A stretch of DNA of 64,000 bases from a virus (taxonomy: Duplodnaviria; Caudoviricetes), in the IMG/VR virus record IMGVR_UViG_3300032226_000829; one strand, written 5' to 3'. Position 1 is the first letter of the stretch, and each line of letters opens with the position of its first letter. Below the pieces are notes generated by a model. That model had not been told where the DNA came from, made no database searches, and was given only the letters and a program-made list of their open reading frames with translations. The translations under genes were made by a program, and so were the position numbers. This document shows, piece after piece, positions 14,387 through 19,232 of the stretch.

Positions 14387-14680
14387 ATGAAGTACATCAT
14401 TGACATTGACAACACAATTTGCTATAATAAAGACAGCGATTATGTCAACAGTACACCTGACATCACACGCATAGCCCGAGTTAATCAGTTGTATGATGAT
14501 GGACACGAGATTCATTATTACACAGCAAGAGGTGGCAACAGTGGCAAAGACTGGAGTGAGTTAACTCGTCAACAGTTGACTGAATGGGGGTGCAAATTCC
14601 ATTCAGTAAATTTGGGCAAACCAGTGTATGATGTTTGGGTGGATGACAGAGCTGTTAAAGCAGAGGATTTTTTTAAATGA
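14387..14680 (+). CDS. Minimal HAD phosphatase (97 aa)
   Basis: IIDIDNTI (DxDxT), YYTARG, GKP, WVDDRA. Confidence 0.8.
   Translation: MKYIIDIDNTICYNKDSDYVNSTPDITRIARVNQLYDDGHEIHYYTARGGNSGKDWSELTRQQLTEWGCKFHSVNLGKPVYDVWVDDRAVKAEDFFK
14400..14428 (+). promoter_or_regulatory. Consensus sigma70 promoter within the HAD gene
   Basis: TTGACA (14400-14405), 17 nt, TATAAT (14423-14428) with extended -10 TGn; may partly reflect DID/CYN codons. Confidence 0.5.
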
Positions 14681-15735
14681 GAATAGATTATAACATACAT
14701 TTGGATTACGCAGACGTACTATTAAAACCCAAAAGATCCACACTGAGTTCAAGACGTGATGTGGACATGACTAGAGATTTCACATTTCGTAACAGCAAAC
14801 AGCAGATCTCATTTGTGCCTGTGGTTGCCAGCAACATGGATGGTGTGGGCACATTCAGTATGGCCAGAGTATTACAAGAATATAAACTTTTAACTGTGTT
14901 AAGAAAACATTACACCATTGCGGATTGGGACAGAGCAATAGGCACAGGATTAAAATTACAATATGTGAGTGCGTGTACAGGCACAGGAGCTATGTGGGAC
15001 AACAATTCACCAGACTATCAAACTTTAAAAAAAGTTATGGAGAAATATCCAGATGTGAGCATGATTACCATAGATGTGGCCAATGCTTATCATGAACAGT
15101 TTGTGGACTTTGTTAAGAGAATAAGATCTGAATTTCCCGACAAGACCATCATAGCAGGCAATGTGGTATCACCAGAGATGGTGGAAGAATTAATCATCAA
15201 TGGAGCAGACGTGGTCAAAGTGGGCATAGGTCCAGGATCAGTGTGTACCACTCGTACACAAACAGGAGTGGGAGTGCCACAGTTTTCTGCCATCATAGAA
15301 TGTGCTGATGCTGCCAACGGAGTGGGTGGACACATCATTGCTGATGGTGGTTGCACACAGCCAGGAGACATAGCCAAAGCATTGGCTGCAGGTGCTCACA
15401 TGGTGATGTTGGGTGGCATGCTGGCAGCACATGATGAATCAGAATTAGAATTGAAAGATGGCAAAAGAGTATTCTACGGCATGAGTTCCGAATCAGCATT
15501 TGAAAAACACGGCGCAAGAAAAGATGGCTACAGAGGCACTGAAGGCAAAACAGTAAAATTAGACAACAAAGGTCCTGTGAAAGACACTGTGGAACAGATA
15601 TTGGGTGGAGTCAGAAGCACTTGCACTTATATAGGAGCAAGAAGAATCAAAGACATGCCCAAGTGTGCTCACTTCGTGAGAGTGAACAATGTGATCAACA
15701 GAGTTTTTGACAGATATGAAACAAATAAAAATTGA
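14677..15735 (+). CDS. guaC: GMP reductase
   Basis: LDYADVLLKPKRSTLSSR, SNMDGVGT, KVGIGPGSVCTTR (catalytic Cys), IADGG, FYGMSS, EGKTV; no CBS domains. Confidence 0.92.
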   Translation: MRIDYNIHLDYADVLLKPKRSTLSSRRDVDMTRDFTFRNSKQQISFVPVVASNMDGVGTFSMARVLQEYKLLTVLRKHYTIADWDRAIGTGLKLQYVSACTGTGAMWDNNSPDYQTLKKVMEKYPDVSMITIDVANAYHEQFVDFVKRIRSEFPDKTIIAGNVVSPEMVEELIINGADVVKVGIGPGSVCTTRTQTGVGVPQFSAIIECADAANGVGGHIIADGGCTQPGDIAKALAAGAHMVMLGGMLAAHDESELELKDGKRVFYGMSSESAFEKHGARKDGYRGTEGKTVKLDNKGPVKDTVEQILGGVRSTCTYIGARRIKDMPKCAHFVRVNNVINRVFDRYETNKN

Positions 15736-15955
15736 TCTAATTCTCAAATGGATAGCCACAGCCATATTGATTGTGGGCACATTTGTTAATGCTGGATTTC
15801 CAGAACTATATCCCGTGGGACCAATACTGTTGGCCTTGGGTGGAGTATTTTGGTTGGTAGTTTCATTGATTTGGCGAGAACCTGCACTGATTGTGACCAA
15901 CATTGTGTTGACATGTGTGGGCTTTGGTGGTATAATACTATATTACATTAGATAA
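15716..15955 (+). CDS. Three-TM membrane protein, PnuC/SemiSWEET half-transporter-like (79 aa)
   Basis: Three hydrophobic segments; LKWIAT...FW...WRE.AL...N. Confidence 0.5.
   Translation: MKQIKIDLILKWIATAILIVGTFVNAGFPELYPVGPILLALGGVFWLVVSLIWREPALIVTNIVLTCVGFGGIILYYIR
15908..15936 (+). promoter_or_regulatory. Perfect sigma70 promoter for DNA polymerase, embedded in the upstream ORF
   Basis: TTGACA (15908-15913), 17 nt, TATAAT (15931-15936) with TGn. Confidence 0.9.
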
Positions 15956-15958
15956 GGC

Positions 15959-16007
15959 ATAATCGGCCATAAGCGATTATTTGGTATGTGTCAGCCTTAA
16001 ATGACAC
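15959..16007 (+). promoter_or_regulatory. Twin hairpins in the polymerase 5' UTR (candidate translational operator)
   Basis: ATAATCG-gccataag-CGATTAT (15959-15980) and GTGTCA-gccttaaa-TGACAC (15988-16007). Confidence 0.7.
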
Positions 16008-16019
16008 GGATTGGAACAT

Positions 16020-18692
16020 ATGAGTTACATAGACGCATTCTTCGATAGAAATCAAGATTTTATTCGTGTGGTAGAACGCAAAGAAGGCAAAAGAATCTAC
16101 AAAGAATATCCCATTAGATACACATTCTTTTATGAAGATGCCAATGGCAAATTCAAAAGCATATATGGCAATTCTCTCAGCAGAATTGTCAGCAAGAGCA
16201 CCAAAGACTTTCATAAAGAATTAGCCATCAATAGAAACAAAAAATTATTTGAATCCGACATCAATCCCATATTTCAATGTCTCAGTGCCAACTACCTCAA
16301 TCACGATGCTCCCAAACTGAATGTGGCATTTTTTGATATAGAAGCAGACTTTGATCCTGAAAAAGGATTCGCTGATCCCTCAGATCCGTTCATGCCAGTC
16401 ACAGCTATCACTGTGTATCTGCAATGGATAGACAGCATGGTGACTTTTGCACTGATTCCTAAAACCTTAACACTTCAACAAGCCAAGGATCAGACCAAAG
16501 ACACAAAGAATTTATATCTGTATGAGCGTGAAGCAGACATGTTGCAGGCATTTTTAGACATAATAGAAGATGTGGATGTGTTGAGCGGTTGGAACTCAGA
16601 AGGTTATGACATGCCTTATCTAGTGAATAGAGTCAGCAAAGTATTGAGTAAAGATGACACTAGACGTTTTTGTTTATGGTCACAGATGCCTAAAAAAAGA
16701 ACATTTGAAAAGTATGGCAGAGAACAAGAAACTTATGATTTAATAGGCAGAGTACACATAGACAGTTTGGAACTGTATAGAAAATATACCTATGAAGAAC
16801 GCCACACATACAGACTGGATGCCATAGGAGAAATTGAATTGGGAGAAACAAAAACTGTGTATGAAGGCACGTTGGATCAACTGTACAACAATGACTTTAA
16901 AACTTTTATAGAATACAACAGACAAGACGTGCAACTGTTGAACAACTTGGATAAAAAACTTAAATTTTTAGATCTCAGCAATGAACTAGCTCATGCCAAC
17001 ACAGTGCTGATGCAAACTACTATGGGTGCTGTGGCAGTGACCGAACAAGCCATCATCAATGAAGCACACAAAAGAGGATTGCAGGTTCCCAATAGACCAC
17101 ACAGATCCGATGAAGAAAACACCACAGCAGCAGGTGCCTATGTGGCATTTCCCAAAAAAGGACTGCATGATTGGATAGGATCCATGGACTTGAATTCACT
17201 GTATCCAAGTGTGATCAGAGCTCTAAACATGGCTCCTGAATGTGTGGTGGGGCAATTGCGTAACACCTACACAGAATCATTTCTACAGGATCAAATAAAT
17301 CTACAAGGCAAATCATTTGCGGCAGCATGGGAGAATAAGTTTGGCAGTTTGGAGTATGAATATGTGATGACTCAAAGACGAGACATGCCTATCACAATAG
17401 ATTGGGAGAATGGTACCACAGAAGAAAAAAGTGGCGCAGAGATTTACAAGATGATATTTGACAGCCACAAGCCCATCATGATCAGTGCCAATGGCACCAT
17501 GTTTACCACAGAGTTTGAAGGTGTGATTCCTGGATTATTAAAAACATGGTATCAAGAAAGAACTGAGATGCAGGCCATGAAAAAGAAAGCACAAAGTGCC
17601 AGCAATCAAGCAGAGATAGAATTTTGGGACAAAAGACAATTGGTTAAAAAAATTAATTTGAACTCACTGTATGGTGCCATACTTAATCCAGGCTGTAGAT
17701 TCTTTGACAAACGCATAGGACAATCAACCACACTCACAGGTAGAACCATCAGCAAACACATGGCAGCAAAAATAAATGAAGTGATCACAGGCACATACGA
17801 TCATTTGGGAGATGCTGTGATATATGGTGATACAGACTCTGCTTATTTCAGTGCTTATAAAGTTTTAAAGAAAGACATTGATGCTGGATTGATTCCATGG
17901 ACCAAAGAGAGTGTGATCAAACTGTATGATCAAGTGGCTGAAGAAGTCAACAACAGTTTTAAAACATTCATGGGTGAAGCATTTCATTGTCCCAAAACAA
18001 GAGCAGAAGTGATTCAAGCAGGACGTGAATCCATCAGTGAAACAGGATTGTTTATCACTAAAAAAAGATATGCTGTGTTGATATATGAATTGGAAGGCGA
18101 TCGTATGGATGTGAATGGTAAACCAGGCAAGGTAAAAGCCATGGGATTGGATCTTAAACGTTCAGACACTCCGGTGTTTGTGCAGGATTTTTTAAGTGAA
18201 ATATTACTGATGGTGCTGACCAAATCAGACGAAAAAGCAGTATTGGAAAGAATCAGCACATTTAGAAATGAATTTAAATTGCGTCCAGGTTGGGAAAAAG
18301 GTTCTCCCAAACGTGCCAACAATGTGGCAGATTATCAAAGAAAAGAAAAAGCACAAGGCAAAGCCAACATGCCAGGACACGTGCGAGCTTCAATCAATTG
18401 GAACACATTAAAACGTATGAACAATGATCGTTACAGTTTGGAAATTGTGGATGGCATGAAAGTGATTGTGTGTAAACTCAGAAACAATCCTTTGGAGTAC
18501 ACCAGTGTGGCCTATCCCACAGATCAATTGAGAATACCTCAATGGTTTAAAGAATTACCTTTTGATCACTCAGCCATGGAAACCACAGTGATCGATAGTA
18601 AATTGGGCAACCTGTTGGGAGTGCTGGATTGGGATATTCAAAGCACAGAAACAGGCAACACATTCAACACATTATTTGACTTTGGAGATTAA
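16020..18692 (+). CDS. Family B DNA polymerase (T4 gp43-like, 890 aa)
   Basis: ExoI FFDIEADF, ExoII GWNSEGYD, ExoIII YNRQDV; pol motifs DLNSLYPS, KINLNSLYG, YGDTDS, KKRY. Confidence 0.97.
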   Translation: MSYIDAFFDRNQDFIRVVERKEGKRIYKEYPIRYTFFYEDANGKFKSIYGNSLSRIVSKSTKDFHKELAINRNKKLFESDINPIFQCLSANYLNHDAPKLNVAFFDIEADFDPEKGFADPSDPFMPVTAITVYLQWIDSMVTFALIPKTLTLQQAKDQTKDTKNLYLYEREADMLQAFLDIIEDVDVLSGWNSEGYDMPYLVNRVSKVLSKDDTRRFCLWSQMPKKRTFEKYGREQETYDLIGRVHIDSLELYRKYTYEERHTYRLDAIGEIELGETKTVYEGTLDQLYNNDFKTFIEYNRQDVQLLNNLDKKLKFLDLSNELAHANTVLMQTTMGAVAVTEQAIINEAHKRGLQVPNRPHRSDEENTTAAGAYVAFPKKGLHDWIGSMDLNSLYPSVIRALNMAPECVVGQLRNTYTESFLQDQINLQGKSFAAAWENKFGSLEYEYVMTQRRDMPITIDWENGTTEEKSGAEIYKMIFDSHKPIMISANGTMFTTEFEGVIPGLLKTWYQERTEMQAMKKKAQSASNQAEIEFWDKRQLVKKINLNSLYGAILNPGCRFFDKRIGQSTTLTGRTISKHMAAKINEVITGTYDHLGDAVIYGDTDSAYFSAYKVLKKDIDAGLIPWTKESVIKLYDQVAEEVNNSFKTFMGEAFHCPKTRAEVIQAGRESISETGLFITKKRYAVLIYELEGDRMDVNGKPGKVKAMGLDLKRSDTPVFVQDFLSEILLMVLTKSDEKAVLERISTFRNEFKLRPGWEKGSPKRANNVADYQRKEKAQGKANMPGHVRASINWNTLKRMNNDRYSLEIVDGMKVIVCKLRNNPLEYTSVAYPTDQLRIPQWFKELPFDHSAMETTVIDSKLGNLLGVLDWDIQSTETGNTFNTLFDFGD

Positions 18693-19232
18693 ATGGCAAG
18701 ATACGGCATGGTAGATTTGGAAACATTAGGCACAAGACCAGATGCTGCCATATTGACTGTGGGTGCTATCAAGTTTGATCCACATTCAGACTCAGAACCC
18801 TACGAAGGTAGATATTGGAGATTAAATGTGGATGAACAAACAGCATTGGGTAGAACAGTGGACGAAGGTACCATTGAATGGTGGGGCCGACAGGCACCTG
18901 AGATACGTGATGAGGCATTGGGAGACACAGATCGTGTGATCATAGCAGACTTTGCCAAAGAATTCAACAAATGGTGTGTGGGATTGGATCAGCTGTGGTG
19001 TCAAGGTCCATTGTTTGATTATGCCATCATACAAAATTTATATGACCAAGCTCGCACTCCTGTGCCTTTCAACTATTGGCAAATCAGAGACAGTCGCACA
19101 CTGTTTGATTTGATGCCACAGGATCCTAGAAAGAGCATGCAGAGCAGTCTACACAACGCATTGGCTGATTGTTACTATCAAGCCAAATGTGTGCAACAAG
19201 TTTTTAAACATTTAGGAGTAAAGAAAAAATGA
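18693..19232 (+). CDS. DEDDh 3'-5' exonuclease (Rv2179c-like)
   Basis: MVDLETLG, GPLFD, RDSRT, HNALAD. Confidence 0.8.
   Translation: MARYGMVDLETLGTRPDAAILTVGAIKFDPHSDSEPYEGRYWRLNVDEQTALGRTVDEGTIEWWGRQAPEIRDEALGDTDRVIIADFAKEFNKWCVGLDQLWCQGPLFDYAIIQNLYDQARTPVPFNYWQIRDSRTLFDLMPQDPRKSMQSSLHNALADCYYQAKCVQQVFKHLGVKKK

What the first reader, a model, noticed from the sequence alone, without database searches (positions are those of the whole stretch)
15959..16007. Twin hairpins with matching 8-nt loops in the DNA polymerase leader: candidate autogenous operator
Seen: between a perfect sigma70 promoter (15908-15936) and ATG 16020 lie ATAATCG-[GCCATAAG]-CGATTAT and GTGTCA-[GCCTTAAA]-TGACAC. The stems differ in sequence, but both loops are 8 nt and match GCCWUAAR. 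I saw no such loop in other intergenic regions. Established: T4 gp43 represses its own translation by binding a leader hairpin with an 8-nt loop (the original SELEX target). Inference: a duplicated operator read by the polymerase or by a dimeric RNA-binding protein, with a loop sequence unlike that of T4.
Basis: partly seen in the sequence, partly recalled or inferred. Interest (0 to 1): 0.7.

Follow-up and report, generated by a model that had tools for sequence, protein, structure and literature searches.

The report
Twin RNA hairpins before phage polymerase
The messenger RNA of this uncultured lake giant phage's DNA polymerase starts with two small folded RNA units set against the ribosome-binding site; hundreds of related phages keep them, no catalogue lists them, and they probably limit how much polymerase is made, as phage T4 does with a different hairpin.

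Summary
The two hairpins (15959-15980 and 15987-16008), their 8-nt GCCWUAAR loops and the 12/12 sigma-70 promoter are all there.

The structure is real. In 39 leaders chosen only by polymerase homology, 10 of 11 stem pairs show compensatory changes, while GCC and AA in both loops never vary.

Each hairpin is also preceded by GGY (97 of 97 twin leaders). GGY is complementary to the loop GCC, which suggests two H-type mini-pseudoknots. One lineage carries the matched change AGU/GCU.

A covariance model finds the unit only at the polB leader: in the window, in 588 kb of relatives and in a complete 372-kb relative. It is absent from prokaryote genomes and from Rfam.

In a sister clade the Shine-Dalgarno sequence lies inside the stem.

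The best reading is a translational operator of polB. It is analogous to, but not homologous with, the T4/RB69 gene 43 operator, and most plausibly the polymerase itself binds it. No binding was tested. A riboswitch or another binding protein remains possible.

This scan already found the same element on other genomes (e1-5378310, e1-5389835, e1-5367488), with the same reading.

The parts
15908..15936 (+). Sigma-70-type promoter: TTGACA (15908-15913), 17-nt spacer with TG at 15928-15929, TATAAT (15931-15936). The predicted transcript start is near 15943 (inferred).
   Evidence: One search gives 12 of 12 matches. A promoter scoring at least 9/12, with its -10 box ending mostly 18-20 nt before the first GGY, is present in 44 of 97 unique relatives' leaders, against 3 in coding controls.
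15956..15958 (+). GGC, the 5' element of unit 1. It is complementary to the loop GCC (15966-15968) and is the proposed first strand of mini-pseudoknot helix S1.
   Evidence: GGY lies 6-8 nt 5' of the loop GCC in 97 of 97 unique twin leaders, although it was not used to select them. The pairing itself is inferred.
15959..15980 (+). Hairpin 1: stem 15959-15965 with 15974-15980, loop GCCATAAG at 15966-15973. The conserved core is the inner 4-5 pairs.
   Evidence: All 5 tested pairs show compensatory changes. RNAalifold predicts it independently.
15983..15985 (+). GGU, the 5' element of unit 2. It is complementary to the loop GCC (15994-15996) through G-C, G-C and U-G pairs.
   Evidence: GGT is present in 97 of 97 twin leaders. 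Natural variants are GGU with ACC (U-A pair) and AGU with GCU (A-U pair).
15987..16008 (+). Hairpin 2: stem 15988-15993 with 16002-16007 (plus a U15987-G16008 wobble), loop GCCTTAAA at 15994-16001. Its 3' end abuts the weak Shine-Dalgarno-like GGA copies at 16008-16010 and 16013-16015.
   Evidence: Five of 6 pairs show compensatory changes. It is the best covariance-model hit in the window, 31.8 bits at 15979-16010.
16020..18692 (+). polB, a family B (gp43-type) DNA polymerase of 890 aa, and the gene controlled by the leader.
   Evidence: Pfam DNA_pol_B and DNA_pol_B_exo1. The nearest solved structures are the RB69 and T4 gp43 polymerases, E about 1e-60.

Best explanation
The 5' untranslated leader of the polB mRNA carries a conserved cis-regulatory RNA made of two tandem units of about 25 nt. 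Each unit is GGY, then 1-3 nt, then a 4-7 bp stem closing an 8-nt loop GCC-N-N-A-A-R.

Shown: the stems are maintained by compensatory substitutions. GG(Y), GCC and AA are fixed. The element is unique to the polB leader. It always lies 9-14 nt from the start codon, against or inside the Shine-Dalgarno sequence.

Inferred: GGY pairs with the loop GCC, so each unit folds as a compact H-type pseudoknot. In that fold S1 has 3 bp, S2 has 4-7 bp, and the A-rich NNAAR strand crosses the S1 minor groove.

Inferred: the folded element is a translational operator. When a factor holds it, the 30S subunit cannot reach the adjacent Shine-Dalgarno sequence, and polymerase synthesis is capped. The most plausible factor is free polymerase itself, by analogy with autogenous repression by T4/RB69 gp43. 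Two units would give cooperative or bivalent binding.

My confidence that this is a real polB-specific translational control RNA is about 0.8. My confidence that the polymerase is the ligand is about 0.4-0.45.
For: Structure: in 39 leaders picked by PolB homology alone, 91.6% of cells are paired against 24-47% when partners are slid, and 10 of 11 pairs have double changes. RNAalifold finds the same two helices. G-U pairs outnumber A-C mismatches 10 to 3, which fits sense-strand RNA.

Conservation: 97 unique twin leaders all have GGY before both hairpins. Loop 1 is GCCAYAAR and loop 2 is GCCNNAAR.

Specificity: the covariance model R1 hits only the polB leader in the window. The same holds in a complete 372-kb relative and four large contigs, and in 588 kb around 80 polB genes, always on the sense strand. 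There are no real hits in 596 Gb of prokaryote genomes.

The element stays with polB while the upstream gene changes: DUF6552 here, a DsbA-like gene in G002.

Link to translation: the 3' end of hairpin 2 lies 9-14 nt before the start codon. In the sister clade the Shine-Dalgarno sequence overlaps the 3' strand of the stem in 41 of 56 leaders. Where a mini-ORF intervenes, its stop overlaps the polB ATG as ATGA.

Pseudoknot: natural variants keep the pairing, namely GGC:GCC, GGU:GCC, GGU:ACC in at least 8 leaders, and AGU:GCU in L370 and L553. No GGC:ACC combination was seen.

Analogy: the T4-type and RB69-type gene 43 leaders have one hairpin with the 8-nt loop AAUAACUC just 5' of the Shine-Dalgarno sequence, and gp43 represses its own translation there (review PMC3014915). 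This PolB is of the gp43 type. No RegA homologue is present in the complete relative, and the positive control worked.
Against: No binding or expression data exist.

The loop and stem sequences share no demonstrable homology with the T4/RB69 operator.

According to the review, some T4-related polymerases do not autoregulate.

The element has been lost in at least 3 lineages. In at least 4 lineages a 2OG-Fe(II)-oxygenase-like gene with no obvious coupling sits between it and polB, which then has its own Shine-Dalgarno sequence. So polB control is not obligatory, and the element may act on whichever cistron comes first.

Pseudoknot support rests on one double-change lineage plus one-sided changes, in alignments that I selected.

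Weak helices, invariant unpaired bases and a Shine-Dalgarno sequence inside a helix are equally typical of small riboswitches.
Confidence: 0.45

Rival explanations
1. The element is a small tandem riboswitch. Each mini-pseudoknot binds a metabolite or ion (for example a nucleotide or dNTP-pool signal), and ligand binding stabilises the fold and hides the Shine-Dalgarno sequence. This would be analogous in logic to the preQ1-I, SAM-II and guanidine-II/III riboswitches.
For: Invariant unpaired nucleotides (GG, GCC, AA) sit beside freely covarying stems. In the sister clade the helices are very short (a 3-bp stem plus 3-bp S1), so they would need a ligand to be stable, and the Shine-Dalgarno sequence lies inside the stem in 41 of 56 leaders. 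Tandem arrangement is common among riboswitches.
Against: There is only one copy in a complete 372-kb genome, and only at polB. A metabolite sensor would be expected at other nucleotide-metabolism genes too. No Rfam riboswitch model matches, even at E up to 10. In the twin form hairpin 2 is stable on its own (-8.2 kcal/mol) and the Shine-Dalgarno sequence lies outside it.
Confidence: 0.15
2. The element is an operator for a different phage or host RNA-binding protein, not the polymerase. That protein would set polB translation or mRNA stability.
For: This rests on the same structural evidence as the best explanation. Two like units suit a dimeric binder. The element also heads other first cistrons, namely Cys-rich mini-ORFs and oxygenase-like genes.
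Against: A dedicated regulator with a single target per genome is less economical than feedback. No RegA homologue is present in the complete relative. No candidate gene travels with the element: the upstream neighbours differ.
Confidence: 0.12
3. The element is a constitutive structural feature with no ligand. Candidates are a 5'-terminal fold that protects the early polB transcript from 5'-end-dependent decay, a ribosome standby or spacing device that tunes initiation, or an HK022 put-like RNA that modifies RNA polymerase just downstream of the promoter.
For: In 44 of 97 leaders a sigma-70 promoter places the first unit about 12 nt from the predicted 5' end. Metatranscriptome contigs do contain the leader, though this shows presence only.
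Against: Protection or spacing does not explain invariant loop bases and the fixed GGY. The distance to the start codon is kept even where no promoter is recognisable. The Shine-Dalgarno sequence lies inside the stem in the sister clade. No terminators follow in the operon.
Confidence: 0.15
4. The element acts at the DNA level, as a protein-binding inverted repeat or origin or primase signal, or it is a chance pair of inverted repeats.
For: The antisense strand also folds (-12.9 kcal/mol).
Against: Compensatory changes with G-U wobbles occur on the sense strand. The orientation relative to polB is fixed in every locus. The asymmetric loops are conserved. The position is tied to the Shine-Dalgarno sequence.
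Confidence: 0.03

Closest known systems
Translational operator of T4 / RB69 / RB49 gene 43 (autogenous repression by the gp43 DNA polymerase)
   Same: The gene is of the same type (gp43-like family B polymerase). The position is the same, in the leader directly 5' of the Shine-Dalgarno sequence. The hairpin also has an 8-nt loop rich in A. In both cases there is a single site per genome. Loop 1 (GCCAUAAA/G) shares the tetranucleotide AUAA with the T4 loop AAUAACUC. The review states that the UAAC/UAAA loop bases matter for gp43 binding. That resemblance is a lead, not a test.
   Different: There are two units, not one. The loop consensus is GCCNNAAR, not AAUAACUC. A conserved 5' GGY and a probable pseudoknot are present, whereas no pseudoknot is reported for gene 43. 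There is no sequence homology, and binding is untested.
T4 gene 32 leader pseudoknot and the E. coli rpsO (S15) pseudoknot operator
   Same: These are small H-type pseudoknots in the leader of a replication or ribosomal protein gene, used for autogenous translational control. The rpsO operator alternates between a double hairpin and a pseudoknot (abstract of PMC3985624 as listed; PMC3014915).
   Different: The sequences and dimensions differ. Here the pseudoknot is only inferred, it is duplicated in tandem, and the gene is the polymerase.
Small tandem or pseudoknot riboswitches (guanidine-II mini-ykkC, preQ1-I, SAM-II)
   Same: Very small units with conserved loop bases beside covarying stems, and a Shine-Dalgarno sequence next to or inside a helix. 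Guanidine-II likewise consists of two hairpins with matching loops (my own knowledge).
   Different: No Rfam model matches. The loop sequences are unrelated. The element has only one target gene per genome.
Candidate structured RNAs of IMG/VR phages (Fremin et al. 2023, PMC10690425)
   Same: That catalogue lists 879 candidate RNAs lying within 25 nt upstream of phage genes, including 12 before gene 32. This element comes from the same data source and could be among them.
   Different: The main text names no polymerase-associated motif. The supplementary tables are not held, so whether it is included could not be checked.

Membership tests
T4/RB69 gene 43 translational operator | Hairpin in the 5' leader of a gp43-type DNA polymerase gene, immediately upstream of the Shine-Dalgarno sequence | tested here: met
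   T4-type and RB69-type leaders were read for comparison.
T4/RB69 gene 43 translational operator | Single hairpin whose 8-nt loop is AAUAACUC (UAAC/UAAA core), with sequence similarity to the T4/RB69 operator | tested here: not met
   The loops are GCCATAAG and GCCTTAAA, and the family consensus is GCCNNAAR. There are two hairpins. No alignable similarity to the leaders.
T4/RB69 gene 43 translational operator | Bound by its own polymerase, which represses translation | not testable with these tools
   This needs gel-shift, toeprint or reporter assays.
Any Rfam 15 family (riboswitches, leaders, phage RNAs) | Match to a curated covariance model | tested here: not met
   No hit at the site at E up to 10, either in a 2-kb scan or in a 96-nt scan.
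H-type pseudoknot | A 5' strand complementary to loop bases (a-b-a'-b' order), with loop lengths able to span the grooves and with covariation in the second helix | tested here: inconclusive
   GGY:GCC complementarity is present in 97 of 97 leaders, with 6-9 nt between them. The pairing is kept in the variants GGU:ACC and AGU:GCU. However, there is only one independent double change, and no structure probing.
Intrinsic terminator or attenuator of the upstream gene | GC-rich hairpin followed by a U tract | tested here: not met
   No terminator call on the + strand. The linkers after hairpin 1 are variable and not U-rich in relatives.

The most novel reading that the evidence does not exclude
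The two units are ligand-sensing mini-pseudoknots of about 25 nt each. That would make them a new and unusually small tandem riboswitch class, carried only by giant aquatic phages, which couples synthesis of the replicative polymerase to a cellular or phage metabolite such as a nucleotide-pool signal.
Probability: 0.13. Interest if true: 0.85.

Novelty: new variant of a known kind. Interest (0 to 1): 0.58.

Why it matters
Autogenous translational control of a replicative polymerase is known experimentally only from T4-type coliphages. There the RNA was the first SELEX target, and no structure of the complex has been solved (the review PMC3014915 says one is still awaited).

This element would be a second, unrelated RNA solution to the same problem. 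It is spread over hundreds of uncultured freshwater and marine giant phages, and its natural sequence variation already maps the helices and the invariant contact bases.

It is short enough, about 55 nt, for direct biochemical and structural work with a recombinant polymerase. It is also a ready-made covariance model for annotating polB leaders in viral metagenomes.

If the ligand is not the polymerase, it is either a new phage RNA-binding regulator or a new small riboswitch.

Tried and rejected
- **Rfam:** scans of 2 kb and of 96 nt gave nothing at the site.
- **Octamer count:** GCCWTAAR alone is not enriched in the window, so I dropped it as evidence.
- **Whole-leader folding energy:** not exceptional, z = -0.06. 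Stability is not the argument.
- **Cultured relatives:** Sinorhizobium phage Phosso (48% PolB identity) and Salmonella phage SD-6_S16 lack the element, so no laboratory phage carrying it was found.
- **Prokaryote genomes:** 19 pattern hits. Eighteen have no stem complementarity. The other is an isolated chance match on a Borreliella plasmid, with no twin unit and no ribosome-binding site nearby.
- **RegA as a possible binder:** absent from the complete relative, and the control in RB27 was positive.
- **Metatranscriptome contigs:** four RNA libraries hold the leader. One contig bridges 15331-16120 and one begins at 15957. Contigs cannot show transcript ends or exclude DNA carry-over, so this is presence only and I did not use it as support.
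- **Loop variants GDC, CCC and UCC:** only chance hits.
- **Metagenome scan for GCU-loop variants:** no member beyond L370 and L553.
- **Papers not available:** Petrov & Karam 2002 (PMC137073) is not held. The supplements of PMC10690425 are not held.
- **Tree:** the maximum-likelihood run did not finish in time, so I used FastTree instead.
- **Terminator reading of hairpin 1:** rejected, because there is no U tract in relatives.

Full report
**What is in the window**

One search shows the 64-nt spacer between the stop codon of a small hydrophobic DUF6552 gene (15716-15955) and the ATG of an 890-aa family B DNA polymerase (16020-18692; Pfam DNA_pol_B and exo1). The spacer reads GGC, hairpin 1 (ATAATCG / GCCATAAG / CGATTAT, 15959-15980), UU, GGU-A, hairpin 2 (TGTGTCA / GCCTTAAA / TGACACG, 15987-16008), then a weak GGA-type ribosome-binding site.

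Both hairpins appear in the centroid fold. Folded alone they give -5.4 and -8.2 kcal/mol, well below shuffles.

The octamer GCCWTAAR is not enriched in the window. Isolated hairpins with such loops occur by chance. The window alone is therefore only suggestive.

**Relatives show a real structure**

The polymerase has hundreds of relatives in IMG/VR. Most of their leaders have the same layout with different stems.

I aligned 39 non-redundant leaders chosen only because they precede a homologous polB. In that alignment 91.6% of stem cells pair, against 24-47% when partners are slid. Ten of 11 pairs show changes on both sides, and no shuffle reaches these values. RNAalifold independently returns the same two helices, with 9 of 10 pairs compensated. 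G-U pairs outnumber A-C mismatches 10 to 3, as expected for RNA of the sense strand.

A pattern scan that ignored the downstream gene recovered more leaders. Once stems were required, essentially every hit was followed by a polB start.

**Anatomy of the family**

Among 97 unique twin leaders, loop 1 is GCCAYAAR and loop 2 is GCCNNAAR. Stems are 4-8 bp. Every hairpin is preceded by GGY: GGU 76 and GGC 21 for unit 1, and GGU 97 for unit 2. GGY lies 6-9 nt 5' of the loop GCC, although it was not a selection criterion.

GGY is the complement of GCC. The order GGY, 5' stem strand, GCC, NNAAR, 3' stem strand is that of an H-type pseudoknot. In that fold S1 has 3 bp and a 1-3 nt loop crosses the deep groove of the 4-7 bp stem. 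The 5-nt A-rich strand crosses the minor groove of S1. These dimensions fit the usual stereochemical rules (my own knowledge; inference).

I then searched for natural variants of the otherwise invariant loop triplet.

- G>A at loop position 1 (ACC) occurs in at least eight distinct leaders. It always occurs with GGU, giving a U-A pair, and never with GGC.
- GCU occurs only in L370 and L553. There the 5' triplet is AGU, a matched G-C to A-U change.
- No genuine variants at loop position 2 were found, and none with C or U at position 1.

On an alignment of unit-2 sequences including these variants, S1 is 100% paired, with one double change and six one-sided changes. This supports the pseudoknot but rests on a single independent compensatory event and on sequences that I selected.

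**Specificity**

I built a covariance model of one unit (R1).

- In the window it finds only 15979-16010 (31.8 bits) and 15951-15978 (15 bits). Noise starts at 10.7 bits.
- In a complete 372-kb relative with terminal repeats, and in four contigs of 170-240 kb, it finds only the polB leader.
- In 588 kb around 80 polB genes every hit is at the leader and on the sense strand.
- A strict unit-2 pattern has no real match in 596 Gb of bacterial and archaeal genomes.
- Rfam 15 has nothing at E up to 10.

The upstream neighbour differs between relatives: DUF6552 here and a DsbA-like gene in the 372-kb genome. So the element belongs to polB and not to the preceding gene.

**Evolution**

On a FastTree of 67 distinct polymerases, the twin form occurs in all three major clades. 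A single-unit form, with a different covarying hairpin in first place, occurs in two subclades. The element is missing in at least three lineages and in the outgroup Phosso.

A second sample of 80 loci around the L370 polymerase is dominated by the single-unit form. There a conserved GAGUCG-hairpin-CAUGAAUCAUGG segment is followed by GGY-N3-4-CCG[GCCAUAAA]CGGAG. In that form the Shine-Dalgarno sequence overlaps the 3' strand of the unit's stem in 41 of 56 leaders.

In several lineages a mini-ORF follows the element and ends in an ATGA overlap with the polB start. These ORFs are 15-20 codons in L370 and L553, or Cys-rich and 46-63 aa in L084, L111, L112 and L146. That arrangement implies translational coupling.

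In four lineages a 200-aa gene lies between the element and polB, and polB then has its own ribosome-binding site. Two of these genes hit the 2OG-Fe(II) oxygenase family in Pfam at or just below its cut-off, and the L052 representative of the other two had no Pfam hit.

**Mechanism**

The constant placement against or inside the Shine-Dalgarno sequence points to control of translation initiation. So do the coupling arrangements and the absence of a U tract or terminator.

The polymerase is of the gp43 type. RB69 and T4 gp43 are the nearest solved structures, at E about 1e-60 and about 26% identity. T4 gp43 represses its own translation by binding a leader hairpin plus the ribosome-binding site (PMC3014915). 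I read that operator in RB27 (AGCCU / AAUAACUC / GGGCU, 19 nt before the AUG) and in a Mosigvirus (AGAC / AAUAACUC / GUCU).

The present element has the same position, the same loop size and a single copy per genome. But it has a different loop, a second unit and the GGY feature. It works like that operator without being a member of its family.

One site per 372-kb genome argues for feedback by the gene's own product rather than a regulon-wide regulator or a metabolite sensor. No RegA homologue is present, and the control was positive.

Against this, no binding has been tested, some T4-type polymerases do not autoregulate, and the element can be lost or separated from polB. Short helices with invariant unpaired bases and a Shine-Dalgarno sequence inside a stem would also suit a small riboswitch.

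My estimates for the mechanism are:

| Reading | Probability |
|---|---|
| Autogenous operator bound by the polymerase | about 0.45 |
| Riboswitch | about 0.15 |
| Another binding protein | about 0.12 |
| Ligand-free structural role | about 0.15 |
| DNA-level element or chance | about 0.03 |

**Expression**

Four lake metatranscriptome libraries contain contigs covering the leader. Contigs cannot prove transcription or define ends, so I list this only as tried.

**Novelty and earlier notes**

The held literature gave no description. The IMG/VR catalogue of candidate structured RNAs may contain it unnamed, but its tables are not held.

This scan has already flagged the same element on other genomes, with follow-ups reaching the same reading: twin units or mini-pseudoknots, T4 gene 43 as the closest known system, and no Rfam family. 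I had noted the pseudoknot idea before reading those notes, and I tested the claims here on independent data.

Verdict: a real, uncatalogued, polB-specific leader RNA. It is a new variant of a known kind of control, and its ligand is unproven.

Noticed in passing
window 14677-15735, 15716-15955: A GMP reductase / IMPDH-family gene (352 aa) overlaps by 20 nt the start of a 79-aa hydrophobic DUF6552 gene. The polB promoter lies inside the last codons of that small gene.
   Followed up: partly
window 18693-19232: An Rv2179c-like 3'-5' exoribonuclease gene starts on the base right after the polB stop codon, so it is probably co-translated with the polymerase.
   Followed up: no
L084:2868-3008(-), L112:2042-2227(-), L146:406-597(-), L111:4643-4816(-): Cys-rich ORFs of 46-63 aa (MEEF.TC.EC..PE.C...) with no Pfam family sit between the twin element and polB. 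In L084 and L112, which were checked, the ORF overlaps the polB start by 4 nt, so it is translationally coupled to polB.
   Followed up: partly
L370 8701-8763(-) and L553: A 15-20 codon mini-ORF (MSNQNWF...) follows the single unit and ends in ATGA at the polB start. It could be a leader peptide. This is also the only lineage with the AGU/GCU variant.
   Followed up: partly
L052:1699-2319, L060:2053-2667, L024:2393-3001, L074:2396-3004: Genes of about 200 aa have been inserted between the operator and polB at the same spot in at least two separate lineages. The two in L024 and L074 hit 2OG-Fe(II) oxygenase in Pfam, at or just below its cut-off.
   Followed up: partly
L564-L642 leaders (e.g. 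L580 1420-1500): The single-unit architecture has a second conserved piece: GAGUCG, a covarying 4-5 bp hairpin with a 5-7 nt loop, then CAUGAAUCAUGG running into the GGY of the unit. Its role is unknown.
   Followed up: no
L632 about 1460-1500: This polB leader lacks the GCC unit. Instead it has the hairpin GUGG / UAUCAUAAC / CCAC directly before AAAGGAA-AUG. Its loop contains AUAAC, as in the T4/RB69 operator loop AAUAACUC.
   Followed up: no
L607 447-478, L609/L610 672-703: Unit-like covariance-model hits lie 0.8-1 kb upstream of polB. These may be further cases of genes inserted behind the element.
   Followed up: no
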